A stretch of 64,000 bases of DNA from a virus. The stretch is taken from the IMG/VR virus record IMGVR_UViG_3300025158_000018. One strand, given 5' to 3'. Under the pieces are notes generated by a model. The model ran no database searches. It was not told the DNA's origin and saw only the letters and a program-made list of their open reading frames with translations. This document shows, piece after piece, positions 12,063 to 55,660 of the stretch. The position numbers and the translations under genes are program-made. Positions within the stretch are counted from its first letter, which is position 1. Each line of letters opens with the position of its first letter.

Positions 12063-12096
12063 TGTTTTTCTCCTTTAAGTTGAAAATCTTCAAAGC

Positions 12097-14049: not shown

Positions 14050-14106
14050 GAAGCCCTCTCGACTAACATACTTTTTATTTATATGTTAGTCGAGAGTTTG
14101 TAATAA

Positions 14107-14182: not shown

Positions 14183-14263
14183 TATTATTTTTATACTACC
14201 ACCAAGATCAAAACCTGTCAACTACTTAACGTTCTTCCATCAAAGAACAAAGTAGTAATCGTT

Positions 14264-14674: not shown

Positions 14675-14733
14675 TGTGTGTTCTCCTGTTAGTTTAATCG
14701 TATGGTTGATTGTGTCACGCTTTTATATTCTTG

Positions 14734-15608: not shown

Positions 15609-15669
15609 TTTAGTTCCTGTGAGTGAATTCTATAAGAGCATACTACCATGAAAAAATCGATATGTCAAA

Positions 15670-16245: not shown

Positions 16246-16726
16246 CTTTCGGTCGATATTCCTCTATAGTTTTCTCACAGAAGCCATACACATCCCGCGA
16301 GTACTTGATAATGGTACTGATATGTGTCCAATCATCATGCAAATGATCGATGTTCATATACGCCAACCGTGTCAGTGTCAGACAGGACCTCCACTTAAGA
16401 ACATCCACAGGATTGTCCCCGAAGATGTACTCAAGGTCCATATGAACGCTGGTGCGATACGCAGTGTCCACCGCCTTGATCATCGTGAAGATGTTCCGCC
16501 GAAAATTCTGGTTCTGTAGGAACAACATGTAGGTGTCCAGATCGATAGCGTAGTGCTTCGCCCTTTCACTGCTCCCCAATCCGGGAATGTTAGGAAAAAA
16601 ATACCAACACCAATGGGTTTCCTTTCGACCTTGAACTGAAATCTCGAATAGAGCATTGGTAAGATGTTTTTTCTGCATTCTAGTGTAATCATCTAGAAGT
16701 CTTGCTTTGTCACCATTCTGGATCAT
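16232..16726 (-). CDS. DUF1810-like protein
   Basis: HWCWYFFPNIPGLGSSERAKHYAI resembles DUF1810 signature as recalled. Confidence 0.45.
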   Translation of the reverse strand: MIQNGDKARLLDDYTRMQKKHLTNALFEISVQGRKETHWCWYFFPNIPGLGSSERAKHYAIDLDTYMLFLQNQNFRRNIFTMIKAVDTAYRTSVHMDLEYIFGDNPVDVLKWRSCLTLTRLAYMNIDHLHDDWTHISTIIKYSRDVYGFCEKTIEEYRPKDAVD

Positions 16727-17363
16727 ACGTATAACCTCGGTTGATAATTTTTTCGAAACAATCTTTTAGTGAAGTCGGAGGACAGTCCTGAGACATAGAA
16801 CTGTAACTTAGTTTACCTAGCATCCACTCGTCTTTATCACGATCCAGCATGATCAGGTAATTCACTCCGGAAGCAAATCCGTCGTTCGTATACAATGTGA
16901 TCCCAACACCTTTACGATTTTTACACCCAACCTTGTGGGTAAGTTCGTAGTTGTCGAGAAGCATATTCAACGATTTTTCGAATTCTTCAAAACTGGTATT
17001 CTTTCTTACACGAATTTCCATCCCGTATGTTTTTTGTTGATTCATGTGGTCATAATACGACACAAAGTCGTTAAAGACCGTAGAAGGTAAATTGTACTTG
17101 GCATTTGGCCACGAATTATAAACCTTTTGTGTTACTGCCGCATCGTTGTCTTTTTTCTTACACCACCACAACCAATCCAAAACATCTTTGGTGGTATGTA
17201 CGTCAGGGTCAAACATGACGTTGTGCTTGCGATCCACCAGAGCAACCACGTTACCGGGCATCCCTTCGTCCAAATACTTTTGAAATTTTTCACGCAACGC
17301 ATCCAGATTTTTCCTGTCAGAACTTTGAATCTTTCTGGATCGGGAATATTTCCCGAAATCCAT
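16710..17363 (-). CDS. hypothetical protein
   Basis: ORF. Confidence 0.5.
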   Translation of the reverse strand: MDFGKYSRSRKIQSSDRKNLDALREKFQKYLDEGMPGNVVALVDRKHNVMFDPDVHTTKDVLDWLWWCKKKDNDAAVTQKVYNSWPNAKYNLPSTVFNDFVSYYDHMNQQKTYGMEIRVRKNTSFEEFEKSLNMLLDNYELTHKVGCKNRKGVGITLYTNDGFASGVNYLIMLDRDKDEWMLGKLSYSSMSQDCPPTSLKDCFEKIINRGYTYDPEW

Positions 17364-17548
17364 TCTCGTGCTTCCTTCGCACTAGGGAATTCCGTAGCAG
17401 AATTCAACAAAAAAAACATAATTTGCGCCGTTTTTGGTTAGTCGAATGAACATGCCAAATTTTGTAAGACCATCTACTTGAATGATTGCTTTCATGTGAG
17501 TATTCTATCCTATGGAAAGGGTCTTGTCAACCCCCATGTTAGAAAATT

Positions 17549-17622
17549 TGGTACCTCGTGACAGAATCGAACTGCCGTCATCGCTGTGTAAGAGCGTGGT
17601 TCTTCCATTGAACTAACGAGGC
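17549..17622 (-). tRNA. tRNA-Val (TAC)
   Basis: acceptor gcctcgt/acgaggt, D-stem gttc/gaac, loop ctTACac, T-arm ggcag-TTCGATT-ctgtc, CCA; missed by my first pass, found by T-loop scan. Confidence 0.75.
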
Positions 17623-17629
17623 ATTGTTT

Positions 17630-17714
17630 TGGTGCCGAGGGTAGGATTTGAACCTACGGTGTGGAATACTGGGTTACAAAGCCAGTGCAATCGACCAGAC
17701 TATGCGACCTCGGC
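17630..17714 (-). tRNA. tRNA, probably Thr (TGT); unusual 10-11 nt variable region or 9-nt anticodon loop
   Basis: acceptor gccgagg/cctcggc, T-arm gtagg-TTCAAAT-cctac, CCA; anticodon arm folds as ctggc-tttgtaa-cccag (one mismatch) or actgg-9nt-ccagt; TATAAATA 13 nt upstream. Confidence 0.6.
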
Positions 17715-24574: not shown

Positions 24575-25321
24575 TCAAACAACGTCTGGCCAACCTCGCT
24601 CAAAATCATTCCAAAAAATCTCCATAAGCATAACCGCAGCACCCTTACGACCAGAATCCGCCAATTGATAGTCTTCACTCCAAAGTTGTTCAAATTGTGA
24701 AAGAACATCATCACTCATACGTCGCTTGTAAAAATTCAACAATGCACCCAGCGCAGACTCGAAATTTTGCCGGAACTCAGACAAATCGTCAGAATGATAG
24801 ATGTTATTAAAAAGTTCCTTGTGTCGAGTATTTGACCGATAATTGTCCAATACTGAACCAGCCATTTCTTGAAATGACTCACACGACTCCAACTCACCAT
24901 GAGAGGCCAATAGTCTTACTATCGGGTCAGACTCTAAATTCAAGTTAATGCTGATTGCACCACCATTAACAAAAGTCAAAAAATATCGAAACATCGAAGA
25001 ATTTTTACTTTGAAGATCGAATTCGTATGCAATTGCACTAAAATGATTTAACATCACCGATAACCCAATCGTGCTATCAGTAAAAGGTGCGCTTACATCA
25101 ATCACCGAATGGGTCTTACAATATTTAAACAAATTTTTCCACGCTACTGAAACTTCCTTAACGATAGGCAATTCCTCAACCCGCCCAACCATAACATAAA
25201 AATCAATATCCCCCAAAACTATCCCCAACAGCGGCAACATTGTTACCACCATAAAGTTGTCTGAACAAAATTTCTCCATTGCCATCCCTGATTTCCAAAG
25301 TCTTACCACCAGATAGGTCAA
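24575..25321 (-). CDS. hypothetical protein
   Basis: ORF; last gene of the leftward block. Confidence 0.45.
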   Translation of the reverse strand: MTYLVVRLWKSGMAMEKFCSDNFMVVTMLPLLGIVLGDIDFYVMVGRVEELPIVKEVSVAWKNLFKYCKTHSVIDVSAPFTDSTIGLSVMLNHFSAIAYEFDLQSKNSSMFRYFLTFVNGGAISINLNLESDPIVRLLASHGELESCESFQEMAGSVLDNYRSNTRHKELFNNIYHSDDLSEFRQNFESALGALLNFYKRRMSDDVLSQFEQLWSEDYQLADSGRKGAAVMLMEIFWNDFERGWPDVV

Positions 25322-25403
25322 TGTCGTGCTTCATCAACACGTTTCCCTCTCCATCACGAACTTCGAAAATACTATCCTTGTGACGATCCATACGATTTTT
25401 CAT

Positions 25404-26445
25404 TTCTGTTATCCTCGGTTCTTCTCAACTAATTTCGAGCCGCTGTGTGAATGAATGAGCCACCATACTATCACAGGGTCTCAACCATGTCAACTTCCCG
25501 TAGACGATGAGCGAAACCACCACCCACAAGAAAATAGTATTACAGACATATCAAAAATGTAAAGCATACTTTACATTCTCCCTATAAAGAAAACAATGAG
25601 ACACACTTTCACCCATTTAGCATAACTCTAACCCATTGTCAAGAAAAATTGTATCATCCCATTTCACCCATTTACCACATTTTTTAATAGTTGTCAACCC
25701 TTGCAAATCATCAATATTCATGCTATGATAGTGGTATGAAACTGTATCCAAAAAAGGAAATAAGAATGATTCTCGATTCTACTTGACAACCATTCGCATT
25801 CTCATGTAGCATGAGAACACAATTGATAATCATTCCCATTCGCAAAAGTGAATGAGAATCGTTCGCATTTACACAGATGAGAATGAGAATCATTCGTATT
25901 ACCATTCTCATCAGCATTCAAAGCCCACTTTTCAAGGCTAAAAAATGCTTGACAAGGATCATAACATTTGATAAAATCATTAAGCCTATAGGCAAAATTA
26001 TAATACTTTAGGAAACTCTAATGTAACATTCCCATAAAAATCAAAGACTTACATGAGATAGGGGTCTGGAAAATTTTTCGAAATGTATGCAGAGTTCGGT
26101 CCATGCAATTAGTGTTTAAACATTGATCACTTTACACCATTGAAAAAGTTGTTATTTTTCATATGTTTATGTAGTGTTCTTAGAAGTGCTGGAAATACTG
26201 TGTTCTAAGTATTTTCATATGTTCTACGGGCAGAATGTAAAGTATACTTTACAAAGTAGTATAATAGCTGTTCACCAAATGTGGTAGAAAGTGGAATATT
26301 GTGGTATTATGTGGTAAAAAATGGAAAACCCCTAACGCACGCGTTAGCCCTTAATGGTATCGTGTTGTATAAAAGACACTTAACGGTTTAGTTAATAGTT
26401 CACTTAACTGAATATTACGAGGTTCACTTAACAGGAGTTTAGTTT
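25404..26445. promoter_or_regulatory. 1-kb AT-rich non-coding hub between divergent gene blocks: palindromes, iterons, sigma70-like promoters; candidate early-promoter cluster and/or replication origin
   Basis: TGTAAAG-N4-CTTTACA palindromes at ~25559 and ~26237; TGTGGTA x3 at 10-bp spacing 26280-26316 with inverted copy at ~25665; GAGAATCATTCG-type repeats 25765-25900; TCACTTAAC x3 26378-26432; TTGACA-17-TAAAAT at 25948-25976. Confidence 0.5.
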
Positions 26446-26805
26446 TTGACTAATAAGGTTTTACTTCCATTGATTCGAAGGACTTCATCGGATGATGATT
26501 TGAATAATCCATTTATTATATCGATTTCGTTTGATCATTTCATGGATTGTTTGGATGCTATTATATCGCGTGGGACTGAATGTATGTTTTGTATTCAGCA
26601 TTCATTACGAAGTATGGAATACAGTGAGAAGGATGAATGGTTAATTCTTCGAATGGACTTTGAAGATATGGCGTCGGAAGTTGATAAGACGTTTCGTGTG
26701 ATTTGTAGGGAACATGAAGACGGGATGTTGCGTAAGGTTGATCGGTGTTCACTGACGAATTATGTGAGCCGACAAGATTTTGTGAAGATGTATTTCGTAG
26801 TATGA
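26446..26805 (+). CDS. small DCL-motif paralog family protein (member F)
   Basis: FDHFMDCLDAIISRG aligns with VVDCLDAIFS of 30007..30525. Confidence 0.5.
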   Translation: MTNKVLLPLIRRTSSDDDLNNPFIISISFDHFMDCLDAIISRGTECMFCIQHSLRSMEYSEKDEWLILRMDFEDMASEVDKTFRVICREHEDGMLRKVDRCSLTNYVSRQDFVKMYFVV

Positions 26806-27077
26806 TTGATATTGGTAATTTTATGAAAGAGATGGAACAGGTTGTCTGTATACGAGAACGGGAACGGGAACGTATTATTTCTGATTTAGAAGATTGTATA
26901 GATTGTGTACACAGTCACGGGACGTTTGATAGTCTCGGGAACTTTTTACGTAGTACTAGGTTTTCATTTTTGCTAAGCGATTCTGTTGTTGTTTTTGAGA
27001 AATATTCTATATCTCCTCTTACTTACACTTTGAGCGGTCAGCGTATAGGGGGGGATTTACAAATTTATTTTAGATGA
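26745..27077 (+). CDS. hypothetical protein
   Basis: ORF overlapping previous by 61 nt in another frame. Confidence 0.35.
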   Translation: MFTDELCEPTRFCEDVFRSMIDIGNFMKEMEQVVCIRERERERIISDLEDCIDCVHSHGTFDSLGNFLRSTRFSFLLSDSVVVFEKYSISPLTYTLSGQRIGGDLQIYFR

Positions 27078-27232
27078 CACGACTGGGTCATTTTCTTTTT
27101 CTATAATTAGGCCCAATGGTGCCATTCATGGTAATACTGAAATAATTGAGAATTTGTTTTTTTGAATGATATAAAAAATCAACTGAGTTTATTGGTATTG
27201 GAGTTAAAGAAAAGGTATCCGGGGTATTGGTG

Positions 27233-30929: not shown

Positions 30930-31469
30930 ATGACAACATATGCAATGATTGATATAGAAACAACAGATACGAGCGCGAGGACATGCATCCTCAGTATAGG
31001 TATTGTGTTTTTTGACAATGAAGAAATAACCAAACAATTGTATATACTACCGGAACTCCAACCGCAGATTGATGCGGGAAGGCGTTTAAGTGTATCTACA
31101 CTGAATTTCTGGATGACACAAAGCTCAGAGGCCAAGAGAGACGTTTTTAGTCAAGAGTCACGCGTTAGTATAGATTATGCAATAGAACAGCTTAGGAGAC
31201 TCGACAAGGCCGACATCATCCTCTCACACGACTTGGACTTGGACTTGGCAGCAATCATAGACTTTTACAATCAGTTTGCTGAAGATAATACAATCCCACT
31301 ATTTCATTATCGAAAGAAAAGATGTTTTAGAACCATTGGGCGAATCTATGACCCACGGTGCAAGTATCAACCGGAACGAACCGTGTATCACAACGCCTTA
31401 GACGACGCACTTGTACAAGCCAAACATTTCATGAGACTTCGTGAAGAGTTTGACATAAACATAGAATAA
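30930..31469 (+). CDS. DEDDh-family 3'-5' exonuclease (DnaQ-like)
   Basis: Exo I MIDIETTD, Exo III YHNALDDA. Confidence 0.75.
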   Translation: MTTYAMIDIETTDTSARTCILSIGIVFFDNEEITKQLYILPELQPQIDAGRRLSVSTLNFWMTQSSEAKRDVFSQESRVSIDYAIEQLRRLDKADIILSHDLDLDLAAIIDFYNQFAEDNTIPLFHYRKKRCFRTIGRIYDPRCKYQPERTVYHNALDDALVQAKHFMRLREEFDINIE

Positions 31470-34656: not shown

Positions 34657-34739
34657 ACATCTAAAAATATAAAACCCTCGCCCTGCGGGGGTTTTTCATT
34701 TGACAGTACAAGAAGTTTCTGCTATCATATTCTCTCAGA

Positions 34740-35291
34740 ATGAGGAAATTTAGAATGAAATTTTTCAAATTTTTAACTGCCCAATTTGGACTAGCAGAAG
34801 CAGATTTAGATTATTATCTAATGCAACTTTTTATGGTACCGATGATACACATTTTTGCTATTATCCCGTGGTTGTTTGGTCCCACCATAGGGCAAAGTTT
34901 TCCTACTACACCTATTATCTTAGTCTTTTCGGGCGCAATAGTATCTTTTTCTTTGGCCGCAATTGATAATATAATAGAGCTTATCTCGGATTATCTAACT
35001 AGATCCCGTAGCACAATCAGAAAATTCTTTGCGAAAAATTTTGTTCCAGATCATTTGTTAGAATATTATAGAGAACCGGTTCTACCTCCGGGATATTTTT
35101 TTCCAAGACCCATGCCTTTTGTTGCGTTAATGTCTTTTTGGGCATCAACGATGGGCTTGATAGGGGCAATTCTACACTTTCCATGGATAACATTGGGAAC
35201 AATACTAGTATTGTTACTAGTAACAATCGGATTTATAATTCTCAGAAAAAAATTCGACGAATACTATAACAAGATTGGGGACAAAAAATGA
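34740..35291 (+). CDS. hypothetical multi-pass membrane protein
   Basis: hydrophobic helices. Confidence 0.5.
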   Translation: MRKFRMKFFKFLTAQFGLAEADLDYYLMQLFMVPMIHIFAIIPWLFGPTIGQSFPTTPIILVFSGAIVSFSLAAIDNIIELISDYLTRSRSTIRKFFAKNFVPDHLLEYYREPVLPPGYFFPRPMPFVALMSFWASTMGLIGAILHFPWITLGTILVLLLVTIGFIILRKKFDEYYNKIGDKK

Positions 35292-35713
35292 TCAAAGAAA
35301 TTATCTTAGCCGGAAATGTAATCGCATCTTCCGCAGAAAATTTAGTTGAATTAAATGGTTATTGGGAGAATTCGCAACACGCAGTATCAATCAATATTAC
35401 CAACACCAGCGGTGAAATTATATGGTATACAACCGGATTTACTGTCGGAGAAGATGTTTGGTACAATGGGGAACTTTATTACTCTGAATATATCAGCGCC
35501 TATTGTGCCGATCTAACTCCCGGAAACACCATTCTACCAACTGTACTGTACCCCGTTCCACCTCTAGGAACCATCTGTATGGATGTTATTGATGAAACTT
35601 TGATCATTGGTTACTCTGTTGAAATGAGGGATTTTGGGAATTGCTTGTTCATGACTTGGAATTCGCATATCCCCCGGAAATGCGGCGGTAATATGGACAT
35701 GTTTAGAAAATGA
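35288..35713 (+). CDS. hypothetical protein
   Basis: ORF. Confidence 0.45.
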   Translation: MIKEIILAGNVIASSAENLVELNGYWENSQHAVSINITNTSGEIIWYTTGFTVGEDVWYNGELYYSEYISAYCADLTPGNTILPTVLYPVPPLGTICMDVIDETLIIGYSVEMRDFGNCLFMTWNSHIPRKCGGNMDMFRK

Positions 35714-36183
35714 AATTGATTAAAGGTGATTTATTGAAAAATACCAGTGGACTTCTATTGCATGGAGTCAACTGTCAACAAAAAATGAATTCTGGGATAG
35801 CAAAAGCAATAAGAGCAAAATGGCCTATAGTGTTTCAAGAATACTACAAGTTGGGAAAAGGAAAGCACTTGCTTGGAACTTTTCAACCAGTCGTCATTAG
35901 TAATTATCTGGTTATTGGAAATTGTTTTACTCAGGAATTTTATGGTCACACTGGTGGGCCATACGCTGACCTTGGGGCCATACGTAAGTCCTTGACAACT
36001 GCCGCAGAGTGGGCTAAAATTGAAGACATGGAACTGAAGATGCCGAAAATTGGAGCCGGTCTGGGCGGATTGGATTGGGTTGATGTAGCTATGGTAGTGG
36101 AAGAAGTAGAAGAATCGGTGGGCATAGAAATTAGTGTTTATCAAATTTCCCCCGGTACACAAAAAGCTGTGCTTTTTCGTTAG
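35710..36183 (+). CDS. macrodomain protein, TARG1/OARD1/DarG-like
   Basis: GDLL..LLHGVNCQQKMNSGIAKAIRAKWP and KIGAGLGGLDWVDV match TARG1-type macrodomain pattern as recalled. Confidence 0.65.
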   Translation: MKLIKGDLLKNTSGLLLHGVNCQQKMNSGIAKAIRAKWPIVFQEYYKLGKGKHLLGTFQPVVISNYLVIGNCFTQEFYGHTGGPYADLGAIRKSLTTAAEWAKIEDMELKMPKIGAGLGGLDWVDVAMVVEEVEESVGIEISVYQISPGTQKAVLFR

Positions 36184-38297: not shown

Positions 38298-39485
38298 ATG
38301 AAGATAATTAAGCTATTCGAGGCGAAAGAACCAGACCTTTCATCCATCATCGGCCCGGATGTTAAAAAATTAGGTCGTATATTCAAAAATAATGGATACG
38401 AAATACGAATCGTAGGTGGTGCTGTGCGTGATGCTTTACTCGGAAAAACCCCCAAAGACATCGACCTAGCAACAACCGCTACCCCGGAAGAGATGGAAAA
38501 GATTGGGCGTGTAAACAACCTTAGAGTTGTTGATACCGGATCAGAACATGGAACATTAACTTTTGTTATAAATGATGAACCTTATGAAATAACCACTTTA
38601 AGAATTGACAAAGATACTGACGGTAGACATGCTGAAGTGGAATGGACTCGCGATTTTAAGGAAGACGCCAGAAGAAGGGATTTGACCTATAACGCTATGT
38701 CGGTGGATATGGACGGAAAACTTCATGATTACTTTGGTGGCCATGAAGACTTGAAGAACAAGCAAACCCGCTTTGTCGGCGACCCAGATGAAAGAATTCA
38801 AGAAGATTATCTCCGGATTCTTCGTTATTTCAGATTCTTGGCCAAACAAGAAGGACGAGCGTCAGACGAACAAACTTTACAATCTATTTCAAGAAATGTT
38901 GGAGGATTACGTAAAATATCGGCGGAAAGAATTTGGTCAGAGTTAAGTAAAATGGTAATACAACCAAATATGAAACAAGCATTCAAAGAAATGAAAAAAT
39001 GTGGCGTCCTAGGGGCCATTTCTATGCCAACAAGCAGTTCAGCAATACGGCACGGAGCCGAAGCTGCAAAACTGCCTGAGATTCGCCCAGAGGCGGTCAT
39101 AGCCACAATGTTGGACGCAACACCGTCGGAGACAATGAATTTCGTGTCGAGAATGAAAATGTCTAGACCAGAAGCCAATTTGATAAACTACATAGTGGCG
39201 CGGGAAAACGTAAAAGGTGTTTCTTTTCTTGATGAAATCTTTTTCAATGGAATTAAACCCGAAACTGTTCGTCAATATGGGTTGGCAGTTGGTGACAGTT
39301 CTGCTGTATCAGCGGCAAAAGCAGCAGAAAATGCTCCACCATTCCCCGTTTCTGGTGGAGATTTATTGAAACGGGGTTTTACACCCGGACCAGAATTAGG
39401 TAAAATGATCAATTCACTCAAAAAACAATGGGTGGACAGTGGATTCAAACTGAACAAAGAACAACTTTTAGGAAAATTGAAATGA
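38298..39485 (+). CDS. cca: tRNA nucleotidyltransferase (CCA-adding enzyme), class II head domain
   Basis: GGAVRD, DIDLAT, RRDLTYNAM motifs. Confidence 0.85.
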   Translation: MKIIKLFEAKEPDLSSIIGPDVKKLGRIFKNNGYEIRIVGGAVRDALLGKTPKDIDLATTATPEEMEKIGRVNNLRVVDTGSEHGTLTFVINDEPYEITTLRIDKDTDGRHAEVEWTRDFKEDARRRDLTYNAMSVDMDGKLHDYFGGHEDLKNKQTRFVGDPDERIQEDYLRILRYFRFLAKQEGRASDEQTLQSISRNVGGLRKISAERIWSELSKMVIQPNMKQAFKEMKKCGVLGAISMPTSSSAIRHGAEAAKLPEIRPEAVIATMLDATPSETMNFVSRMKMSRPEANLINYIVARENVKGVSFLDEIFFNGIKPETVRQYGLAVGDSSAVSAAKAAENAPPFPVSGGDLLKRGFTPGPELGKMINSLKKQWVDSGFKLNKEQLLGKLK

Positions 39486-40012
39486 TTTTAAAAGAAATAT
39501 TTTTACAAGAATCAGTAAACGCTACTGATAAGTACACCATAGCAGTAGATATGGACGGGGTTTTGGCCGATTTCTCTGCGGGGGCCAGAGAAATGTTGGG
39601 TTTAGACAAAGATACTACACCTTCTAAAAAATTTTGGTCTACCTTGAGTAGATATGATAAAGAAGTTAAGCCATTTTTTCTCAATTTGCCCGTTATGGAT
39701 GATGCTTTTGAGTTGATGAGATTCGTCCATTCAAACTTTAAAAATTATTATATATTGACCGCTTCCGGGTATACTCCAAAAGACGGGGCGGAACAAAAGA
39801 AAGAGTGGGTTAAAAAAGTGTTTGGTCCGCAAATTAGAGTGGAAGTGGTAAAGAAATCTTCAGACAAGGCCAACTACGCCACAAACAACAGTATTTTAAT
39901 TGATGACAGGATGCATTCCATAGGCCCATGGAGAGATGCTGGCGGAATAGGTATTGTTCACGTTACAGCACAGCAATCTATTACAGAACTAAAATCTTTT
40001 TTGGGCCGTTAA
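39482..40012 (+). CDS. 5'(3')-deoxyribonucleotidase (NT5C-like HAD)
   Basis: AVDMDGVLADF motif; ATGA overlap with cca stop. Confidence 0.7.
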   Translation: MILKEIFLQESVNATDKYTIAVDMDGVLADFSAGAREMLGLDKDTTPSKKFWSTLSRYDKEVKPFFLNLPVMDDAFELMRFVHSNFKNYYILTASGYTPKDGAEQKKEWVKKVFGPQIRVEVVKKSSDKANYATNNSILIDDRMHSIGPWRDAGGIGIVHVTAQQSITELKSFLGR

Positions 40013-40827
40013 TCTAAAAGTTCGACCGGGGCATCAACCATACTAAAGTCGGACGGTATGTGTTTGCCCCAAGCTTTTTTTCCGGCCAAATCTATTATCC
40101 CGACGATTTTGTTAGAACCCCTGAATCCTACATTTGATGGAATAGAAAAAGTTTTAGAAATCTTGTCACTTTCTGTTCCAACATATTTCCTGACTATATT
40201 TTTAAAAATCTTTCTGAGACCGTCTTGTTCGTCTCTTATATCCGTACTGCCCGTAATACGTCCATCAACCAATTTACTAGCAAGAGATTTTATGTGAAGG
40301 GTAGAACGTTTGATAATGTTTTCAACCGTTACCGGATTTAAGTTATAAAACTCTTTCAAGTTTTTAGAAAGAGTTTTTGTGGTTTCTTTAGTTATTGTTT
40401 CAACCATTTGATCAATTTCTTCAAACATTTCGTCAGAGTCGTCATGGTTGTATTTGTCTAGGATATGTAAAACTTCGCCATAAATCTTACTGTCGATTTT
40501 ATCTAATATCTGAAATAAATCATCTTCGTCTAAATAAGAAGATTTCGGCTGAACCTCGGCAATTATTATTGCGGGCTCACTACTATCTATCCAACGAGCA
40601 AAATTTTTTGCTTTTCCAAAATTGGTAGTAAAATACACCCCCTCGTGTGGCTCATAGCCAAACCCGAAATCGGTGTTCATCTCATCATCACCCAAGCCCC
40701 CGCCCCTGTAGTTCATTATCAACCCATTTTTGATAATAGAGCGGAGATTCTTTTTACTGGTAGCATGATACGCTATAACCTTTTCTTTGGAAAATTTGGC
40801 CTTTTCCAAAACTATTCCTATTTTCAA
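40009..40827 (-). CDS. PARP-like (ARTD-clade, H-Y-E type) ADP-ribosyltransferase fold protein, putative
   Basis: AYHATSKKNLRSIIKNGL (PARP LWHGSRTTNFAGILSQGL), GVYFTTNFGKAKNFA (PARP GIYFADMVSKSANY), hydrophobic AIIIAEV strand, candidate catalytic E in YGEVLHI; recollection-based. Confidence 0.4.
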   Translation of the reverse strand: MKIGIVLEKAKFSKEKVIAYHATSKKNLRSIIKNGLIMNYRGGGLGDDEMNTDFGFGYEPHEGVYFTTNFGKAKNFARWIDSSEPAIIIAEVQPKSSYLDEDDLFQILDKIDSKIYGEVLHILDKYNHDDSDEMFEEIDQMVETITKETTKTLSKNLKEFYNLNPVTVENIIKRSTLHIKSLASKLVDGRITGSTDIRDEQDGLRKIFKNIVRKYVGTESDKISKTFSIPSNVGFRGSNKIVGIIDLAGKKAWGKHIPSDFSMVDAPVELLD

Positions 40828-42821: not shown

Positions 42822-43253
42822 TTAGTCAGTAAATACTTCGTTTTCTTTCTTGATCCTTTCCAAAATTCGACCAAGATGATTTTCCCCCTTCCCGCTTTCT
42901 ATATCAACCCCCCAAAAAGTATCTCCCCAACTGTTTCCTTCCACGATTGGCTCGTCTATTTGTGACAGTCTTTCGGCAAGTTCTGTATCAGAAAACTTGA
43001 TCTTGTTAAGATCATACATTATTTGTAGACTGATGTCAATCCAATCCGGGCGGACGTATTTACTGTACTTTCGAGATAGGCGTTTGGCCTTTCCCGGAGT
43101 ATTTGAATTAATTATCTTTTGCCGAATAGATGGGTCAGTAAACTTCAAAGCTTGGTAAGCATGCTCTGAGGTAAGATAGGTTACACCCTGAAATGTTATA
43201 GGATGCATATAAAAATTACTTAAAAAATCATATTTTCCCCTAAATTGCATCAT
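42822..43253 (-). CDS. NADAR (YbiA/DUF1768) domain protein
   Basis: FRGKYDFLSNFYMHPITFQGVTYLTSEHAYQALKF signature. Confidence 0.75.
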   Translation of the reverse strand: MMQFRGKYDFLSNFYMHPITFQGVTYLTSEHAYQALKFTDPSIRQKIINSNTPGKAKRLSRKYSKYVRPDWIDISLQIMYDLNKIKFSDTELAERLSQIDEPIVEGNSWGDTFWGVDIESGKGENHLGRILERIKKENEVFTD

Positions 43254-44002
43254 TCCATTAACTCCACAGTGATTTTACCGGTTGATAAAAAACTACCAGT
43301 GTCTATGTAACGAACGTTTCCAATATTGGTAACTTTTTCAACTATAGTGTGTCCGACGTAAATCCGGTCAACATTTAGAATTTTTTTAAGATCGGCTTGT
43401 AAATAGCTTCTGGAAGTAAAACGGCTTCTGCCCCAATACAAATTGTCCGCTAAATCTTTGCTCATCTGGTCTTCTGTCATTTTATACAATAACGACCAAT
43501 CGGTGAATTTGATTGGAAGCTCTGCATGTAGCACCCCAAATTTCTTACCATTTTTATGGTTTACCTCAATAATAGACGGAAGCTTTTCTATTATTTTTTT
43601 AAATCTAAGGTATGCTCCCCCATTGTCAATAATGGACCCACCGTTTTGCATAAAAATATGAAAATATGTTTTCAACTGAACGACATCATCAGTAGCAGGG
43701 TCGTAATCTTCCATCCAATACTTATGAGCAGCAAGCCACATTATTTCGTGATTTCCTAAAACGGGAAAAAACCATTCTTCTTCCATCAGTTTTAGACAAG
43801 AAAGGCTATCTGGTCCACGGTCCACAAGGTCTCCTACAGAAAAAACTCTGTCTACATTAGGATCGAATCTGTTGTCATAAAGAAGATTTTTGAAATCTTC
43901 ATAGCATCCGTGTAGATCGGATACTACGAAGTCTCTTCCTTCGGGGTTTGGTCCGTATGATTTAAAAAATTTCATTGATGTATTATAACTGGAACTATTC
44001 AA
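43250..44002 (-). CDS. calcineurin-like metallophosphoesterase (PP-lambda / ApaH-like)
   Basis: DLHG, GDLVDRG, GNHE motifs. Confidence 0.8.
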   Translation of the reverse strand: MNSSSYNTSMKFFKSYGPNPEGRDFVVSDLHGCYEDFKNLLYDNRFDPNVDRVFSVGDLVDRGPDSLSCLKLMEEEWFFPVLGNHEIMWLAAHKYWMEDYDPATDDVVQLKTYFHIFMQNGGSIIDNGGAYLRFKKIIEKLPSIIEVNHKNGKKFGVLHAELPIKFTDWSLLYKMTEDQMSKDLADNLYWGRSRFTSRSYLQADLKKILNVDRIYVGHTIVEKVTNIGNVRYIDTGSFLSTGKITVELME

Positions 44003-51938: not shown

Positions 51939-52338
51939 TTGATCATTATATTGATATGAGACGGTATTTGCAATACTACTGGCAACAATTAAAATAGAGA
52001 AGGGGACAAGTTAGCTTGTCCCCTTCTGAGCTTTGGTTATACGGATATTGCTCTAACCCGCATTCGATCAAGCTGCTAGGGCGAAGCCGTTAGCGTTGCT
52101 GTCGAAGTCAGCGTCATTTGCTGCATTTATTTTACTATCATTTTTGCGTCTTTGTTGACGATTCTCCTCGATTCCTAATAACGCCCGGTCGATTTCCAGT
52201 TTCGCCCCCTCCAAAAGCGTCCACCATTTCCCGGATTTACCGGGTTTCTGACGCATTACCCAACTCGTCTAAGGCTTTTTTGTTTGCTACGCCGGGAGGA
52301 TGCCCTATCCTTCCTCTGTTGGCACTTGTAGACGCTTT

Positions 52339-52390
52339 TGGAGACGGCGGGAGTCGAACCCGCGTGTCGTTCGCTTTCAGTCTCGTCTCA
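52339..52390 (-). ncRNA. tRNA-like minihelix RNA (acceptor + T-arm only), candidate
   Basis: 6-bp acceptor gagacg/cgtctc contiguous with T-arm gcggg-TTCGACT-cccgc; only 20 nt where D and anticodon arms belong; TATAAATA plus TATAAT 23 nt upstream. Confidence 0.35.
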
Positions 52391-52428
52391 ACGAATGCTT
52401 ATTATTATACCTATTTATATCCAACCCG

Positions 52429-53133
52429 TCAAGTATCTTCGGACAATTTTATTTTAGTCTTTTTCTTAGTAGTTTTTTTTCTTCCACTGGATACCAATTT
52501 ACCATCCAAGGGGGTTTTGGGAGTAATGTCTTCTGTCTCAAGTAAAGAATTCTTCTCTCCAGCTTCTAAACGAGCAATAAGCTGGTCGGAATCCATCCAG
52601 ATATCTCGACCATCAACTACATGGTCGATCTCTTCTTCTGTAAGAATTTTCTCATAAAACTTTCTCATTATTTTTTCCACATAGCCGTTTACATGCTCTA
52701 CTCTCGTTCTAATTTCATGCCCCTTTCCGATTGCAAAACCGCCAGAATAGTTGTGTATCATAAAAGAACAATTCGGATTGATGATATACTCTTCCCCAGA
52801 TAAAAAAATCAAAGTCGCTGCAGAATGGGCATCTCCGTCTAAAGAAGTAATCACTTTGGCTCTAGATGCGACCATAGAGTTCACAATCTGTATTGCCATT
52901 CTAAGAGAACCGCCTTCACTGTTGATGTAAATTACTATAGTATCCTCTTCATTAGCGGTTTTTAACACATTGAGTAGGTCTGAATACTTGTTAATATCAT
53001 CCTCTATCTCTCCAGACAGATAAAAGTGGTGAACATTTAATTGCAAGCTTTGTACGTAATGCTTAATTTTTGGTGGATCAATCCTAAAAGAAGAACCATC
53101 CTCGAATCTTTCGTCAATTGCTTTATTTGACAT
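52429..53133 (-). CDS. ClpP-family (S14) serine protease homolog
   Basis: INSEGGSL and MIHNYSGG blocks; basic C-terminal tail. Confidence 0.65.
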   Translation of the reverse strand: MSNKAIDERFEDGSSFRIDPPKIKHYVQSLQLNVHHFYLSGEIEDDINKYSDLLNVLKTANEEDTIVIYINSEGGSLRMAIQIVNSMVASRAKVITSLDGDAHSAATLIFLSGEEYIINPNCSFMIHNYSGGFAIGKGHEIRTRVEHVNGYVEKIMRKFYEKILTEEEIDHVVDGRDIWMDSDQLIARLEAGEKNSLLETEDITPKTPLDGKLVSSGRKKTTKKKTKIKLSEDT

Positions 53134-53185: not shown

Positions 53186-55066
53186 TCAGATAACATCAAA
53201 ATCAGCAACATCGACCACAGGAATACCCAATTCTTTAGCTTTCTTCACTTTAGAGCTAGAAGACTTAACGCTTTTGGTAAGAACCATAGTTGTATTCTTA
53301 GAAACAGAAGTCGTGACCTTTCCACCGCGCTCCTCGATTTTTTCTTTCAATTCGTTATCCCTAAATCCTGTCATCACTATAGTTTGACCACCCATACTTT
53401 GCTCGGTCACCGACTTTTTTGTGAAAGTTATGTAGTCCTTGGTTCTATCCAAAAATATATTGAAGCGGCTTAATCCATCATAGATGCTTTCACATGTAGA
53501 ATTAAACCCTTCTAGTTTCTCGATATCTTCGAATGTAGCGTTTTTGAACTCTTCTAGGGTCATTTGTCCCAAAACCTTCTTCGCTTTTCGAACCCCGAAC
53601 CCTCTTCCAAAATAAGGGAGTGATCCCATTACCACTTCAGGTTTTACACTAGAGAGAATAGTATGTAAACTCAGAAACGCCTTTTTCCCATTTTCTCCCA
53701 ACGCTTGTCTCCACTCTTCATCCCATAACTCTATAATTGATACTACCAAATCGTCGAAGATTTTTTCACTCCATCCTTGATGTTCTATTAATTTTTCAAT
53801 AGAAGTTTCTTGTACGTTATCAACACCGAGAGTCTTAAAAAAGTGAACGGTCTCCATCAAAGTACGCTGGGAAGAGATTTCTTCCTTAGAGACAGCTTCA
53901 ACCCCGTTTTCATCCCAACTCCACGTGCCTTTGGGTGGCATGTCGGGGTGAACGGGTCTCGTTACCCCCATCACATACGGGATAACACTACCGGCGCGAG
54001 TGATTTTAATTTTGGCACCACTACCAATCCCATTGTCACGAATAAATCTTGCGTTGTGCCCCGTGGCGTAGGTTATAGTGGCCCCGTCTAACTCAACTTC
54101 TTCAAACTTGATTCTAGGTTTAAAAAAGTTAGACTTAGAAAGTTTCCAGATAACTTCTTTTACCTCTACTTCTTCAAACAGTGTTTGTACCTTAAACTTC
54201 ACAGAGTGTTCCGGGTTCAATGAATCTGAATCAGAGGTTTCCTTGAAATTAGAATAGTCATTGACTGTTACCACTACTCCGTCTAGTTCATACACGCCGG
54301 TTCTCTTGAATTCGGCCAACGTGTTTGCAAGTTTTTCGTCGGTCAGGTCACATCCTTTCATTTTCTCGTGACGAGCCACAGTGAAATCCATCTGCTTCAA
54401 ATGGTTTACGGTTTCTTCTTTCGTAAATACGTTACTAACTCCGGAAACATCGATAATCTCGTAGGCGACAAGATCAACATCTTGCACCATTTCCAGATTA
54501 GTTTCGTTTCTATTAAGAAAACCTGCAACTAAGTTTCTAGGATTCTTGTACTTTCTTTTATATTTGGCGTCAAATACCGAACGGCGCATTATTATTTCCG
54601 CCCGAACCGCCAGATAGTCACAACCGACGGTTTTGGGAATATCGACGATAGCTACAATATGACGAGTAACGTCATGGCCCAGAACACCATCACCCCGCGT
54701 GAACGCTTTGGACAGTTCGGCCTTGCCCCTCCCGTTGCTTTCGTACACCAAAAGAATGCTGGCCCCATCGAGCTTTTCTGTGACTACAACATCATTTTGA
54801 ATACAATCATACTTTTCAGCCCACTTTAACGCTTCACCCTCATAGACCTGATTTAAACTTCCCATAGAGTATGGGAGATGTACTTTCTCCAACGATGTTT
54901 CTTTAACGTGGGGGGCTTTTTTGAAATACTCATGTTCTGGAGAAATTTCCTCGGCTCTCCTACGAAGTGCGTCGTATTGGTCATCGGGGATCAGGGGTGA
55001 ACCCTTATAGTAAGCCTCGTCGAATTTTTGTAAATCTTGAATCGTTTTCTCGATATCGATAGTCAT
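53186..55066 (-). CDS. ligA: NAD+-dependent DNA ligase (LigA)
   Basis: N-terminal Ia YY..SP.I.D..YD, adenylation TEKLDGAS, C-terminal BRCT. Confidence 0.85.
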   Translation of the reverse strand: MTIDIEKTIQDLQKFDEAYYKGSPLIPDDQYDALRRRAEEISPEHEYFKKAPHVKETSLEKVHLPYSMGSLNQVYEGEALKWAEKYDCIQNDVVVTEKLDGASILLVYESNGRGKAELSKAFTRGDGVLGHDVTRHIVAIVDIPKTVGCDYLAVRAEIIMRRSVFDAKYKRKYKNPRNLVAGFLNRNETNLEMVQDVDLVAYEIIDVSGVSNVFTKEETVNHLKQMDFTVARHEKMKGCDLTDEKLANTLAEFKRTGVYELDGVVVTVNDYSNFKETSDSDSLNPEHSVKFKVQTLFEEVEVKEVIWKLSKSNFFKPRIKFEEVELDGATITYATGHNARFIRDNGIGSGAKIKITRAGSVIPYVMGVTRPVHPDMPPKGTWSWDENGVEAVSKEEISSQRTLMETVHFFKTLGVDNVQETSIEKLIEHQGWSEKIFDDLVVSIIELWDEEWRQALGENGKKAFLSLHTILSSVKPEVVMGSLPYFGRGFGVRKAKKVLGQMTLEEFKNATFEDIEKLEGFNSTCESIYDGLSRFNIFLDRTKDYITFTKKSVTEQSMGGQTIVMTGFRDNELKEKIEERGGKVTTSVSKNTTMVLTKSVKSSSSKVKKAKELGIPVVDVADFDVI

Positions 55067-55122: not shown

Positions 55123-55660
55123 TTATGAGCGCTTTTCTACCCAATTTGGATCAAGATCTTGCATATATTCTTTCGAAATTTTTAGTACAGTTCCGCCATA
55201 TTTGTTCGTCAACTTATCTAGATTTTCTTCGGACAAGTCGTCACCCACATTATAGGACAAAGTTACATGAGGGATGTACTCTGGAAAATCGTAAGTAGCG
55301 CCATGATCTAATGTGGTCTGGTGTTTATCTCTCAAGTAGTCTGAATCGAGGGCCGCTACCAAGCAGCGACCACCGTCTTTCGTATTAAAAATTTTAAATC
55401 CCTTGATTTTTTGCTTCTTTTGGTTCTTCGAGTTCTTCATCAGGCTGATAACCTTTAATGTCTGTTACACTATGGGCTATCGTAGAATGAAAATCTTCTG
55501 GGTTTGTTGGGTTCGGTATTTTGTCCCCGTCGATTATTTTTTTGATTTGTTCAACGGTTTCTGGGGTGAAATTTACCCCTACGTATTTCCCCACAGATAC
55601 ACCTAATTCTGAATCAGAACTAACTGGTCTCTTCGGATACTTCAATTCTCTCAATATCAT
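55123..55660 (-). pseudogene. 2H-phosphoesterase (LigT/ThpR-like) split by a +1 frameshift at an A6 run
   Basis: upstream ORF carries FHSTIAHS (H-x-T-x #1); downstream ORF in +1 frame carries PHVTLSY (H-x-T-x #2); frames meet at gcaaaaaatcaagg ~55395-55410; removing one A fuses them into ~170 aa. Confidence 0.5.

What the first reader, a model, noticed from the sequence alone, without database searches (positions are those of the whole stretch)
35710..36183. TARG1/DarG-type macrodomain in a phage
The sequence pattern matches the TARG1/OARD1 subclass. This is the same subclass as the DarG antitoxin macrodomain, which removes ADP-ribose from DNA. A phage copy would be a plausible counter to DarT-type defence, or an eraser for phage-made ADP-ribosylation.
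Basis: partly seen in the sequence, partly recalled or inferred. Interest (0 to 1): 0.55.

Follow-up and report, generated by a model that had tools for sequence, protein, structure and literature searches.

The report
Glutamine-type DarG-class phage macrodomain
A jumbo-phage gene encodes a small ADP-ribose-removing enzyme of the same structural class as the bacterial DarG antitoxin, most likely used to strip a defensive ADP-ribose tag off phage DNA; phage enzymes of this kind were described in 2025-2026, so it is an ordinary new member.

Summary
The ORF at 35710-36183 (+, 157 aa) is a real, conserved stand-alone macrodomain. The AF2 model has pLDDT 91, and its best structural and profile matches are BT1257, SCO6735, DarG, TARG1 and Poa1p. 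MacroD/YmdB/Af1521 types score about 17 bits against about 99.

The TARG1 catalytic dyad is absent. Lys84 aligns to Gln75, which is invariant in 120/120 homologs, and Asp125 aligns to Gly119. This does not refute the DarT idea. SCO6735 has Gln85, and Q85A/E mutants are dead, yet it cleaves thymidine-linked ADP-ribose on DNA and rescues DarT toxicity. T4 Tk.4 ("AdfM") was shown genetically to counter DarTG2 and carries the same H-G-x-N / T-Q / G-A-G-x-G signature as this protein.

A sister subtype (non-T-Q, Arg-bearing loop) sits in Adps-macro-Namat NAD+ operons, which is the gene arrangement published for the ADPR-1''-phosphate phosphatase Adpp. The query does not belong to that subtype.

Most likely function: an AdfM-like DNA ADP-ribosyl-thymine glycohydrolase (about 0.5). 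The main rival is a soluble ADPR-derivative phosphatase or hydrolase. This is a new member of a known kind, of low to moderate interest.

The parts
35710..36183 (+). Macrodomain gene, 157 aa: a stand-alone ALC1/TARG1/DarG-class macrodomain of the glutamine type. Residues 147-157 form a low-confidence C-terminal tail that homologs lack.
   Evidence: ORF. Pfam Macro. PHROG 335. AF2 pLDDT 91, with residues 149-157 below 50. Foldseek. Homologs end at about residue 147.
35761..35772 (+). Codons for H18-G19-V20-N21. N21 is equivalent to DarG N22, phiKZ AdfM N23 and SCO6735 N27 (distal-ribose contact). H18 is equivalent to SCO6735 H24 and TARG1 H32.
   Evidence: N21 is present in 117/117 aligned homologs, H18 in 109/120 and G19 in 113/120. 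Alignment to reference proteins. The roles of these residues are taken from PMC13309987 and PMC9411070.
35920..35934 (+). Codons for N71-C72-F73-T74-Q75. Q75 occupies the position of the catalytic Lys of TARG1 (K84), DarG (K80) and phiKZ AdfM (K78), and of the essential Gln85 of SCO6735.
   Evidence: Q75 and N71 are present in 120/120 homologs and T74 in 115/120. Alignments. SCO6735 Q85A and Q85E are inactive.
36043..36078 (+). Codons for P112-K-I-G-A-G-L-G-G-L-D-W123, the glycine-rich diphosphate/distal-ribose loop. G119 takes the place of TARG1 Asp125. There is no Arg in the loop, unlike the NARP1-embedded subtype (G-C-D-R-G/A-G).
   Evidence: G115, G119 and G120 are invariant. Loop signatures compared with gene neighbourhood.
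34740..35713 (+). Two upstream ORFs of unknown function (34740-35291, 183 aa, hydrophobic; 35288-35713, 141 aa). Each overlaps the next gene by 4 nt (ATGA), so they are probably co-transcribed with the macrodomain gene. They are not conserved next to the gene in a 74%-identical relative.
   Evidence: ORF list. No Pfam or PHROG hit. Terminator-like site at 34680-34692 followed by a promoter-like site at 34700-34728, though site counts are not above the shuffled controls. Both ORFs are absent in L004 and present in L006-L008.

Best explanation
The gene encodes a catalytically competent, stand-alone macrodomain of the ALC1/TARG1/DarG class. It belongs to the glutamine-type branch, with the signature H-G-x-N ... 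N-x-x-T-Q ... P-K-I-G-A-G-L-G-G-x-x-W.

Proposed mechanism:
1. The protein binds the ADP-ribose moiety in the canonical cleft. N21 and the two Gly-rich loops hold the distal ribose and the diphosphate.
2. Like SCO6735, it uses the invariant Gln75 to position the substrate or transition state, together with an activated water, in place of the Lys(/Asp) chemistry of TARG1 and DarG.
3. It cleaves the N-glycosidic bond between ADP-ribose and a pyrimidine base (thymine in ssDNA, possibly also uracil) and releases free ADP-ribose.

Proposed role: it is made from an early or middle transcription unit of an XacN1-like jumbo phage. It erases the ADP-ribosyl-thymidine marks that host DarT2-type toxins place on replicating phage DNA. 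It would thus act as an orphan 'antitoxin-like' counter-defence of the AdfM type, alongside a NADAR (AdfN-like, guanine-ADPr eraser) encoded 7 kb away.

Shown here: the fold, the class, the residue pattern, the conservation, and the relatedness to the proteins that have been tested experimentally.

Inferred: the substrate (ADPr-thymine on DNA), the Gln/water mechanism, the timing of expression and the anti-DarT role.
For: Fold and class:
- AF2 pLDDT is 91.
- The Foldseek top hits are BT1257, Poa1p, TARG1, DarG and SCO6735.
- Family profile against the PDB: BT1257 99 bits, SCO6735 85, DarG 82/70, TARG1 66.
- NCBIfam and PADLOC DarG models match the macro part only, at 46.7 and 50.5 bits.

Active-site pattern:
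- N21, N71 and Q75 are invariant, as is the G-x-G-x-G-G loop. Gln is present in 120/120 homologs. This argues for an enzyme under purifying selection rather than a decayed domain.

Precedents of the Gln type:
- SCO6735 (Gln85) hydrolyses thymidine-ADPr DNA and U-ADPr RNA and rescues DarT toxicity. Q85A and Q85E are dead.
- T4 Tk.4 'AdfM' is the single HIDEN-SEQ hit needed against DarTG2. Its sequence is HGCN / NLYTQ / PRIGAGIGKGNW, the same signature as the query.
- The query, Tk.4 and phiKZ gp104 AdfM all fall in PHROG 335.

Subtype assignment:
- HMMs were built from IMG/VR relatives, excluding all test sequences. With them, the query prefers the T-Q subtype by +41 bits, Tk.4 by +39.5 and SCO6735 by +22. 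NARP1-embedded macros prefer the other subtype by 18-21 bits.
- T-Q-type genes are rarely next to NAD+ salvage genes: 4/53 viral loci and 3/30 genome loci. The other subtype reaches 10/17 and 15/30 (Fisher 3e-5 and 1.5e-3).

Genomic setting:
- The same phage carries a NADAR (E=6e-24). T4 likewise pairs AdfN with AdfM.
Against: - No biochemical or genetic test exists for this protein or for any close relative. The closest tested proteins are only about 24-28% identical.
- The SCO6735 residues implicated in DNA binding are not conserved. K34 aligns to S28 and K89 to G79.
- The phylogeny inside the Gln clade is unresolved. Query plus Tk.4 exclude the NARP1 group in only 15/100 bootstraps.
- A sister subtype of the same clade has a proven different activity, ADPR-1''-P phosphatase (Adpp). 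Many macrodomains show that activity in vitro.
- Iyer et al. argue from context that phage macrodomains mostly target soluble ADPr derivatives.
- The window is rich in RNA-repair genes and holds an ART/Tpt1-like ORF. That setting would also fit an RNA-repair by-product role.
- The host, and whether it has DarT, are unknown.
- The T4 Tk.4 evidence is genetic only and comes from a preprint.
Confidence: 0.5

Rival explanations
1. Soluble-metabolite enzyme. The protein would be an ADP-ribose-1''-phosphate phosphatase (Poa1p/Adpp-like) that converts ADPR-1''-P to ADPR. The ADPR-1''-P could come from RES-type NADase defences (aRES). It could also come from Tpt1/KptA-type 2'-phosphotransferase plus cyclic phosphodiesterase activity during phage RNA repair. 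The enzyme would detoxify this product and/or feed NAD+ reconstitution.
For: - Poa1p is among the best sequence and structure matches.
- The Adpp macrodomain of Vibrio phage Gary is a proven ADPR-1''-P phosphatase within NARP1-AP.
- Relatives of the query in the same Gln clade sit in Adps(Prs)-macro-Namat(NAMPT) / NadE / PncA clusters.
- The window has three RNA ligase-type genes, a HAD_SAK_2 gene, a CCA-adding enzyme, NAMPT and an ART/Tpt1-like ORF.
- Iyer et al. 2022 favour soluble substrates for phage macrodomains.
Against: - The query lacks the signature of the NAD-operon subtype (H-Q/V, [SGA]-Q, Arg in the G-C-x-R-G-G loop). It scores 41 bits better on the T-Q subtype HMM.
- No Adps/Prs, NadE or PncA gene is found in the window, and NAMPT lies 25 kb away with unrelated neighbours.
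- No canonical Tpt1/KptA or 2H gene appears among the strong Pfam hits of 65 window ORFs.
- T-Q-type genes are seldom next to NAD genes.
Confidence: 0.2
2. Eraser of, or self-protection against, the phage's own ADP-ribosyltransferase. The macrodomain, and perhaps the NADAR, would reverse or limit modification made by a phage ART such as ORF 40009-40827(-).
For: - The ORF 40009-40827(-) has a weak PARP-catalytic Pfam hit (E=7e-5).
- It has an invariant His21 and Tyr65.
- All ten top Foldseek hits are ART folds (Tpt1/KptA, PARP13/16), with E=0.05-0.5.
- It lies 3.8 kb from the macrodomain gene and 2 kb from the NADAR.
Against: - The ART assignment is weak: model pLDDT is 66 and no hit is below E=1e-3.
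- The third catalytic position varies between E and Q.
- The genes are on opposite strands and are not adjacent.
- The macrodomain family is widespread in phages without this ORF, which has only 7 homologs in 5.8 billion proteins.
Confidence: 0.07
3. Hydrolase for another ADP-ribose conjugate used in immunity. Candidates are uracil-linked ADP-ribose on RNA, protein Asp/Glu-ADPr, or an ADPR-derived signalling molecule. The protein would counter a defence other than DarT2.
For: - TARG1, DarG and SCO6735 also reverse U-ADPr on RNA.
- SCO6735 and TARG1 act on protein Glu-ADPr.
- Phage macrodomains are predicted to be versatile.
- The DNA-binding lysines of SCO6735 are not conserved in the query.
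Against: - No bacterial defence is yet known to make U-ADPr.
- SCO6735 is inactive on 2'-OH RNA-ADPr.
- The only in vivo phenotype known for a T-Q-type phage macrodomain is against DarTG2.
Confidence: 0.15
4. Non-catalytic ADP-ribose binder (reader or sponge), or a stoichiometric DarT inhibitor. The loss of the Lys/Asp dyad would reflect a loss of hydrolase activity.
For: - The TARG1 catalytic dyad is absent.
- Catalytically dead SCO6735 Q85A still inhibits DarT through interaction.
Against: - Gln75, N21 and the Gly loops are invariant across 120 diverse homologs.
- The Gln-type enzyme SCO6735 is the most active DNA-ADPr hydrolase of its class.
Confidence: 0.04

Closest known systems
T4 Tk.4 = AdfM (anti-DarT factor Macrodomain; bioRxiv 10.1101/2025.11.20.689424)
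   Same: Phage-encoded, stand-alone and about 155 aa. Same PHROG 335. Same Gln-type signature: H-G-x-N, S-G, N-x-x-T-Q-x-x-x-G and P-[KR]-I-G-A-G-[LI]-G. Both prefer the T-Q subtype HMM by about 40 bits. Both phages also carry a NADAR.
   Different: Only about 24% identical. The tree does not resolve them as sisters. Tk.4 lacks the 4-residue extension after the Gln and has G-K-G-N-W rather than G-G-L-D-W. Tk.4 has a genetic phenotype against DarTG2, whereas the query is untested.
Streptomyces coelicolor SCO6735 (PDB 5E3B) and Bacteroides BT1257 (2FG1/2AFC)
   Same: These are the best profile matches (85 and 99 bits). Gln stands at the catalytic-Lys position, there is no Asp, and the His and Asn of the first loop are conserved. 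The loop after the Gln is extended. SCO6735 hydrolyses T-ADPr DNA and U-ADPr RNA.
   Different: They are bacterial chromosomal proteins with G-Q rather than T-Q. Their DNA-contacting K34 and K89 align to S28 and G79 in the query. Identity is 22-28%.
PhiKZ gp104 = AdfM (Cell Rep 2026, PMC13309987) and bacterial DarG2 macrodomains (PDB 5M31/5M3E/5M3I)
   Same: Same fold and class, same PHROG, and a conserved Asn (N23/N22, aligned to N21). They are phage or antitoxin erasers of DarT2 marks on DNA.
   Different: They are Lys-type (K78/K80) with the P-T-K and G-x-[GA]-N-G-G motifs. The PADLOC DarG model scores gp104 at 133 bits and the query at 50.5. DarG has an additional C-terminal DarT-binding domain and sits in an operon with DarT. 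PhiKZ gp104 is imported into a phage nucleus, which XacN1-like phages are not known to build (the last point rests on my own knowledge).
Adpp, the NARP1-associated macrodomain ADPR-1''-P phosphatase (Vibrio phage Gary; bioRxiv 10.64898/2026.01.28.702374), and yeast Poa1p (6LFQ)
   Same: Same class, and Poa1p is a top structural match. Macros embedded in Adps-macro-Namat operons belong to the same Gln clade.
   Different: The operon-embedded subtype has H-[QV], [SGA]-Q and an Arg in the second loop. The query is not in a NAD+ operon and fits the other subtype HMM. The phage Gary sequence itself could not be retrieved. The comparison therefore uses Vibrio phages RYC and 1.063.O, which have the same gene order.
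Human TARG1/OARD1 (4J5R)
   Same: Same fold (TM about 0.76-0.85), the I/F-T-x motif and the P-[RK]-I-G-x-G-L loop. TARG1 also removes T-ADPr and U-ADPr.
   Different: The Lys84/Asp125 dyad is replaced by Gln75/Gly119.

Membership tests
Macrodomain superfamily (Pfam PF01661) | Sequence match above the curated threshold, and the three-layer alpha/beta/alpha macro fold with an ADP-ribose cleft. | tested here: met
   24.6 bits against a cut-off of 22. AF2 pLDDT 91. Foldseek prob 1.0 to many ADP-ribose-bound macrodomains.
ALC1-like / TARG1-like class (TARG1, DarG, SCO6735, Poa1p) | Closer in sequence and structure to TARG1, DarG, SCO6735 and Poa1p than to MacroD, PARG or macroH2A types. | tested here: met
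   Profile against the PDB gives 66-99 bits for class members and about 17-22 bits for Af1521, MacroD, macroH2A and ALC1. The structural top 20 are all class members.
TARG1/OARD1 proper | Catalytic Lys84-Asp125 dyad. | tested here: not met
   K84 aligns to Q75 and D125 to G119. The TARG1 sequence was verified.
DarG antitoxin (type II TA, NCBIfam NF048014) | Full-length two-domain protein (macro plus C-terminal DarT-binding domain, about 330-360 aa) that reaches the equivalog cut-off. | tested here: not met
   The protein is 157 aa. It scores 46.7 bits against a cut-off of 250 and matches profile positions 2-149 of 338 only. The PADLOC DarG match covers 3-145 of 329. All 120 homologs are 114-200 aa.
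DarG antitoxin | Encoded next to a DarT (DUF4433) toxin gene. | tested here: not met
   No DarT-like Pfam hit in the flanking ORFs or among the strong hits of 65 window ORFs.
DarG antitoxin / phiKZ-type AdfM | Catalytic Lys (K80/K78) in a P-T-K motif. | tested here: not met
   Q75 stands in an F-T-Q motif.
DarG / AdfM / SCO6735 (DNA ADPr-thymine hydrolases) | Conserved Asn in the first loop (DarG N22, AdfM N23, SCO6735 N27). | tested here: met
   N21 is present in 117/117 aligned homologs.
Gln-type DNA-ADPr hydrolases (SCO6735; T4 Tk.4/AdfM) | Gln at the catalytic-Lys position (essential Gln85 in SCO6735). | tested here: met
   Q75 is present in 120/120 homologs. Tk.4, SCO6735 and BT1257 all have Gln there.
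Gln-type DNA-ADPr hydrolases (SCO6735) | Basic residues K34 and K89 that position the DNA. | tested here: not met
   They align to S28 (Ser in 106/120) and G79 (Gly in 115/120). T4 Tk.4 also has S and G at these positions.
AdfM (functional definition) | Removes DarT2-made ADP-ribose from DNA and protects the phage from DarTG2. | not testable with these tools
   Requires an enzymatic assay or a phage/toxin rescue assay.
Adpp / NARP1-AP macrodomain | Encoded within or next to an Adps-Namat (NARP1) operon. | tested here: not met
   No Prs/Adps, NadE or PncA homolog is found in the window. NAMPT lies at 61331-62761 with unrelated neighbours.
Adpp / NARP1-AP macrodomain | Sequence signature of the operon-embedded subtype: H-[QV]-x-N, [SGA]-Q and G-C-x-R-[GA]-G. 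This signature was derived here, not taken from a publication. | tested here: not met
   The query reads HGVN / FTQ / GAGLGG. Its subtype HMM difference is +41 bits toward the T-Q type.
MacroD / YmdB / Af1521 deacetylase class | Best match to MacroD-type profiles or structures. | tested here: not met
   About 17 bits, E=0.03-0.05, against 99 bits for BT1257. These types are absent from the top structural hits.

The most novel reading that the evidence does not exclude
The T-Q-type stand-alone macrodomains of large phages may not primarily be DarT2 erasers. They have a Ser and a Gly in place of the SCO6735 DNA-binding lysines, and 120/120 carry the invariant Gln. They might instead reverse a base-linked ADP-ribosylation that is not yet characterised, for example uracil-ADPr on RNA or tRNA. 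In this phage the macrodomain would then work in one module with the neighbouring ART/Tpt1-like protein, the NADAR-phosphoesterase pair and the CCA-adding enzyme. That module would be an ADP-ribose-dependent RNA repair or RNA-protection pathway.
Probability: 0.1. Interest if true: 0.6.

Novelty: new member of a known kind. Interest (0 to 1): 0.25.

Why it matters
If the main reading is right, this XacN1-like jumbo phage carries both known enzymatic answers to DNA ADP-ribosylation: a macrodomain for thymine-ADPr and a NADAR for guanine-ADPr. That would extend the AdfM/AdfN pairing seen in T4 to an unrelated jumbo-phage lineage found in many metagenomes. It would support the view that DarT-type defences are a broad selective pressure.

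A small practical by-product came from the comparison. Gln-type phage macrodomains split into two subtypes that can be told apart by sequence. One has T-Q with G-x-G-L-G-G. The other has [SGA]-Q with an Arg-bearing loop and is linked to NAD+ operons. This split could help annotate the roughly 800 phage records now labelled 'phosphatase' or 'Appr-1-p processing', separating likely AdfM-like from likely Adpp-like enzymes, once a few members of each subtype are tested.

Tried and rejected
- **MacroD/YmdB class:** rejected on profile and fold scores.
- **True DarG:** rejected. There is no C-terminal domain and no DarT neighbour, and the score is far below the equivalog cut-off.
- **DNA-level relatives among isolated phages:** none found by megablast. 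Only protein-level relatives exist, with XacN1 best at 49.6%.
- **AdfB (ICP1 Gp145):** considered as a precedent. The passages of the paper that I read describe an antitoxin mimic acting by direct interaction with DarT and do not call it a macrodomain, so I did not use it.
- **NJ tree with bootstrap:** it separates Gln types from Lys types (82/100). It does not resolve relations inside the Gln clade, so it cannot by itself assign the query to the AdfM(T4) or the Adpp lineage.
- **Promoter and terminator scan:** site counts equal those of shuffled controls. The operon picture therefore rests on the ATGA overlaps only.
- **Adpp of Vibrio phage Gary:** the sequence could not be retrieved. No accession is given in the text, and the phage is not in the top 60 tblastn rows. 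I used Vibrio phages RYC and 1.063.O, which have the same Adps-macro-Namat order, as proxies.
- **ART-like ORF 40009-40827:** the structure model is too poor (pLDDT 66) for a firm call.
- **Active-site geometry:** model coordinates are not exposed to scripts, so geometry, electrostatics and docking could not be examined.
- **Bacterial genome scan:** it found only stand-alone relatives, many in the same NAD+ clusters, and no recurrent DarT-like neighbour.
Full report
**1. The observation**

The interval 35710-36183 is exactly one + strand ORF of 157 codons plus a stop. Its ATG overlaps the TGA of the upstream ORF (35288-35713), which in turn overlaps the ORF before it (34740-35291) in the same ATGA fashion. 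The three genes therefore look like one transcription unit. A terminator-like hairpin (34680-34692) and a promoter-like site (34700-34728) precede them, but such sites are no more frequent here than in shuffled sequence.

The product is a macrodomain:
- Pfam Macro scores 24.6 bits against a cut-off of 22.
- PHROG 335 gives E=8e-35.
- 175 homologs were found, all stand-alone and about 150 aa.
- The identical protein occurs in 81 blocks of the metagenome collection, on contigs of up to 0.2-1 Mb.
- An AlphaFold2 model built on a 77-sequence alignment has pLDDT 91.2. Only the last nine residues, a tail that homologs lack, are disordered.

**2. Which macrodomain class**

Foldseek against the PDB returns BT1257, Poa1p, TARG1, DarG (M. 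tuberculosis and T. aquaticus), SCO6735 and TTHA0132 as the top hits (prob 1.0, TM 0.71-0.85). A profile of the family searched against all PDB sequences gives BT1257 99 bits, SCO6735 85, DarG 82 and 70, TARG1 66 and Poa1p 66. Af1521 and MacroD types reach only about 17 bits.

The protein is not DarG itself. It covers only the macro half of the DarG models (46.7 bits against a cut-off of 250; positions 3-145 of 329). No homolog carries the C-terminal DarT-binding domain, and no DarT-like gene is nearby.

**3. The catalytic residues**

I aligned the query with verified reference sequences. The TARG1 sequence was confirmed identical to PDB 2LGR. The DarG, SCO6735 and BT1257 sequences were taken from the PDB alignments.

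- TARG1 Lys84, DarG Lys80 and phiKZ gp104 Lys78 align to Gln75.
- TARG1 Asp125 aligns to Gly119.
- Gln75 and Asn71 are present in 120/120 homologs.
- Asn21 is present in 117/117 aligned homologs, and the G115-x-G117-x-G119-G120 loop is essentially invariant.

The literature shows that it is not a valid criterion. DarG itself lacks the Asp. SCO6735 has Gln85 at the Lys position and no Asp, yet it is the most efficient thymidine-ADPr DNA hydrolase of the class. It rescues DarT toxicity in E. coli and Streptomyces and is inactivated by Q85A and Q85E. Its authors propose a water-mediated mechanism in which the Gln positions the substrate (PMC9411070). SCO6735 also reverses uracil-ADPr on RNA (PMC13036486).

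**4. Phage precedents**

Two phage macrodomains have recently been named AdfM.

- PhiKZ gp104 is a Lys-type, DarG-like protein (N23, K78). It removes DarT2-made ADP-ribose from DNA and is needed against DarTG2 (PMC13309987; sequence).
- T4 Tk.4 was the single transposon-sequencing hit required on a DarTG2 host. A clean deletion sensitises T4 (bioRxiv 10.1101/2025.11.20.689424).

I retrieved Tk.4. It is a Gln type with HGCN / NLYTQ / PRIGAGIGKGNW. The query reads HGVN / NCFTQ / PKIGAGLGGLDW. The query, Tk.4, gp104, T. aquaticus DarG and SCO6735 all match PHROG 335 best.

Macrodomains occur in about 56% of jumbo phages (PMC9503650). By tblastn, 791 phage records hold a relative of the query. The presence of such a gene in a phage is therefore ordinary, and the anti-DarT idea is already published.

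**5. A competing known function, and a subtype split**

Osterman et al. (bioRxiv 10.64898/2026.01.28.702374) showed that a Poa1p-like macrodomain, Adpp, in the Adps-macro-Namat operon of Vibrio phage Gary dephosphorylates ADPR-1''-P. This lets NARP1 overcome the aRES defence.

I fetched 80 IMG/VR loci with relatives of the query, clustered their neighbours and annotated the recurrent ones. The most frequent neighbours are NAMPT/Namat-like, Prs/Adps-like, NadE, PncA, NADAR, glutaredoxin, RNR and ThyA. The NAD+ genes cluster with one sequence subtype: H-[QV]-x-N, [SGA]-Q, and usually G-C-x-R-[GA]-G in the second loop. Two isolated Vibrio phages with the gene order Adps-macro-Namat have exactly this signature.

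The query, XacN1 ORF167 and T4 Tk.4 have the other signature: H-G-x-N, T-Q and G-[AC]-G-[LI]-G.
- T-Q-type genes have NAD+ neighbours in 4/53 viral loci and 3/30 genome loci.
- The other subtype has them in 10/17 and 15/30.
- Fisher tests give 3e-5 and 1.5e-3. The loci are not phylogenetically independent.

Subtype HMMs were trained without any of the test sequences. The query prefers the T-Q model by 41 bits, Tk.4 by 39.5 and SCO6735 by 22. The operon-embedded macros prefer the other model by 18-21 bits.

An NJ tree separates Gln types from Lys types (82/100 bootstraps) but does not resolve the order inside the Gln clade. The subtype assignment therefore rests on signatures, HMM scores and gene context, not on a resolved phylogeny.

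**6. Genomic setting**

The window is a jumbo-phage segment. It holds 11 tRNAs, a tmRNA, a CCA-adding enzyme, RNA ligases, NAMPT, an NAD-dependent ligase, PhoH and DHFR. It has the same local order as Xanthomonas phage XacN1: HTH protein, glutaredoxin, macrodomain, 5'-nucleotidase. This order also appears in a 74%-identical relative on a 247-kb contig.

The macrodomain gene lies at the end of a block of small + strand genes that runs from about 26.4 kb to 36.4 kb. In the same neighbourhood there are:
- a NADAR gene (42822-43253, E=6e-24), overlapping a metallophosphoesterase gene;
- a 272-aa ORF (40009-40827) with a weak PARP-catalytic hit, an invariant His and Tyr, and only ART-fold proteins among its weak Foldseek hits.

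NAMPT (61331-62761) has no Adps, NadE or PncA partner in the window.

**7. Interpretation**

The best-supported reading is an AdfM-like enzyme. It would be a Gln-type macrodomain that binds ADP-ribose through N21 and the glycine loops, uses Gln75 and water in the manner of SCO6735, and removes ADP-ribose from thymine in phage ssDNA modified by DarT2-type toxins. The NADAR in the same region would then be the guanine-ADPr counterpart, as in T4 (AdfN, PMC11825919). The NADAR is only distantly similar to gp30.3.

I put this at about 0.5, for these reasons:
- nothing closer than about 25% identity has been tested;
- the DNA-contacting lysines of SCO6735 are not conserved (also true of Tk.4);
- a sister subtype has a different proven substrate;
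- the RNA-repair-rich context and the ART/Tpt1-like ORF leave room for a role in clearing ADPR-1''-P or other ADPr derivatives.

Rivals and their weights are listed separately.

**8. Novelty and verdict**

The protein is a new member of a known kind. The family (PHROG 335) is large, the class is well studied, and both candidate functions (AdfM and Adpp) are in the 2025-2026 literature. Interest is low to moderate. The only modest additions here are two: the Gln state is invariant in this lineage, and a simple sequence signature separates NAD+-operon macros from the rest.

Noticed in passing
window 40009-40827 (-): A 272-aa ORF with a weak PARP-catalytic Pfam hit (E=7e-5), an invariant His21 and Tyr65, and E/Q at position 91. 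Only 7 homologs exist in the 5.8-billion-protein database. The AF2 model is poor (pLDDT 66), but its ten best Foldseek PDB hits are all ADP-ribosyltransferase folds (Tpt1/KptA, PARP13, PARP16; E=0.05-0.5). It may be a novel phage ART.
   Followed up: partly
window 42822-43253 (-) and 43250-44002 (-): A NADAR-domain gene (E=6e-24; weak Phage_30_3 hit) overlaps by 4 nt a calcineurin-like metallophosphoesterase gene. The NADAR is only about 24% identical over 62 aa to T4 AdfN (gp30.3). It is a candidate guanine-ADPr eraser paired with the macrodomain.
   Followed up: partly
window 55123-55660 (-): The Acb1-like (anti-CBASS 2H phosphodiesterase) gene is split into two overlapping ORFs in different frames: 55394-55660 and 55123-55440. 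Phmmer against T4 57B gives 3e-6 and 1e-14. This could be a frameshift, a pseudogene or an assembly error.
   Followed up: partly
window 3378-17714 (-) and 51977-52429 (-): Eleven tRNA genes (His, Met x2, Pro, Tyr, Leu x3, Arg, Val, Thr) are interspersed with small ORFs. There is also a phage-encoded tmRNA with the tag AANDADFDSNANGFALAA.
   Followed up: no
window 363-1559 (+), 38298-39485 (+), 30930-31469 (+): An RNA-maintenance gene set:
- an RNA ligase with a PHA02142 OB domain;
- a CCA-adding tRNA nucleotidyltransferase;
- an Rv2179c-like 3'-5' exoribonuclease;
- a T4 Rnl1-like ligase and a HAD_SAK_2 'Swiss army knife' RNA-repair domain elsewhere in the window, neither mapped to an ORF.
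   Followed up: partly
window 61331-62761 (-), 53186-55066 (-): NAMPT (NAPRTase plus NAMPT_N) is flanked by a NUMOD3 homing-endonuclease-like gene and an Hsp20 gene, with no Adps, NMNAT, NadE or PncA in the window. An NAD-dependent DNA ligase with a BRCT domain is also present. The phage both consumes NAD+ and invests in its supply.
   Followed up: partly
window ~25300-27200: The coding strand switches here, from - strand genes up to 25321 to + strand genes from 26446. GC drops to 0.35 and the GC skew changes sign. This may be a divergent early promoter region or a replication-related boundary.
   Followed up: no
loci L009-L088 (IMG/VR), L089, L090, L092-L171: Gln-type phage macrodomains fall into two signature subtypes.
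- One has [SGA]-Q, H-[QV] and usually an Arg in the G-C-x-R-G-G loop. It is embedded in PncA-Prs(Adps)-NAMPT(Namat)-macro-NadE clusters.
- The T-Q subtype is instead found near glutaredoxin, RNR and ThyA.
The Arg could be the 1''-phosphate ligand of Adpp-type enzymes, which is speculation.
   Followed up: yes
L004 6820-7203 and 1926-3854: In the 74%-identical relative (a 247-kb contig), a TnpB/Cas12f-like TNB-domain ORF is inserted between the HTH and glutaredoxin genes. An intein-containing gene lies upstream. Both are absent from the window.
   Followed up: no
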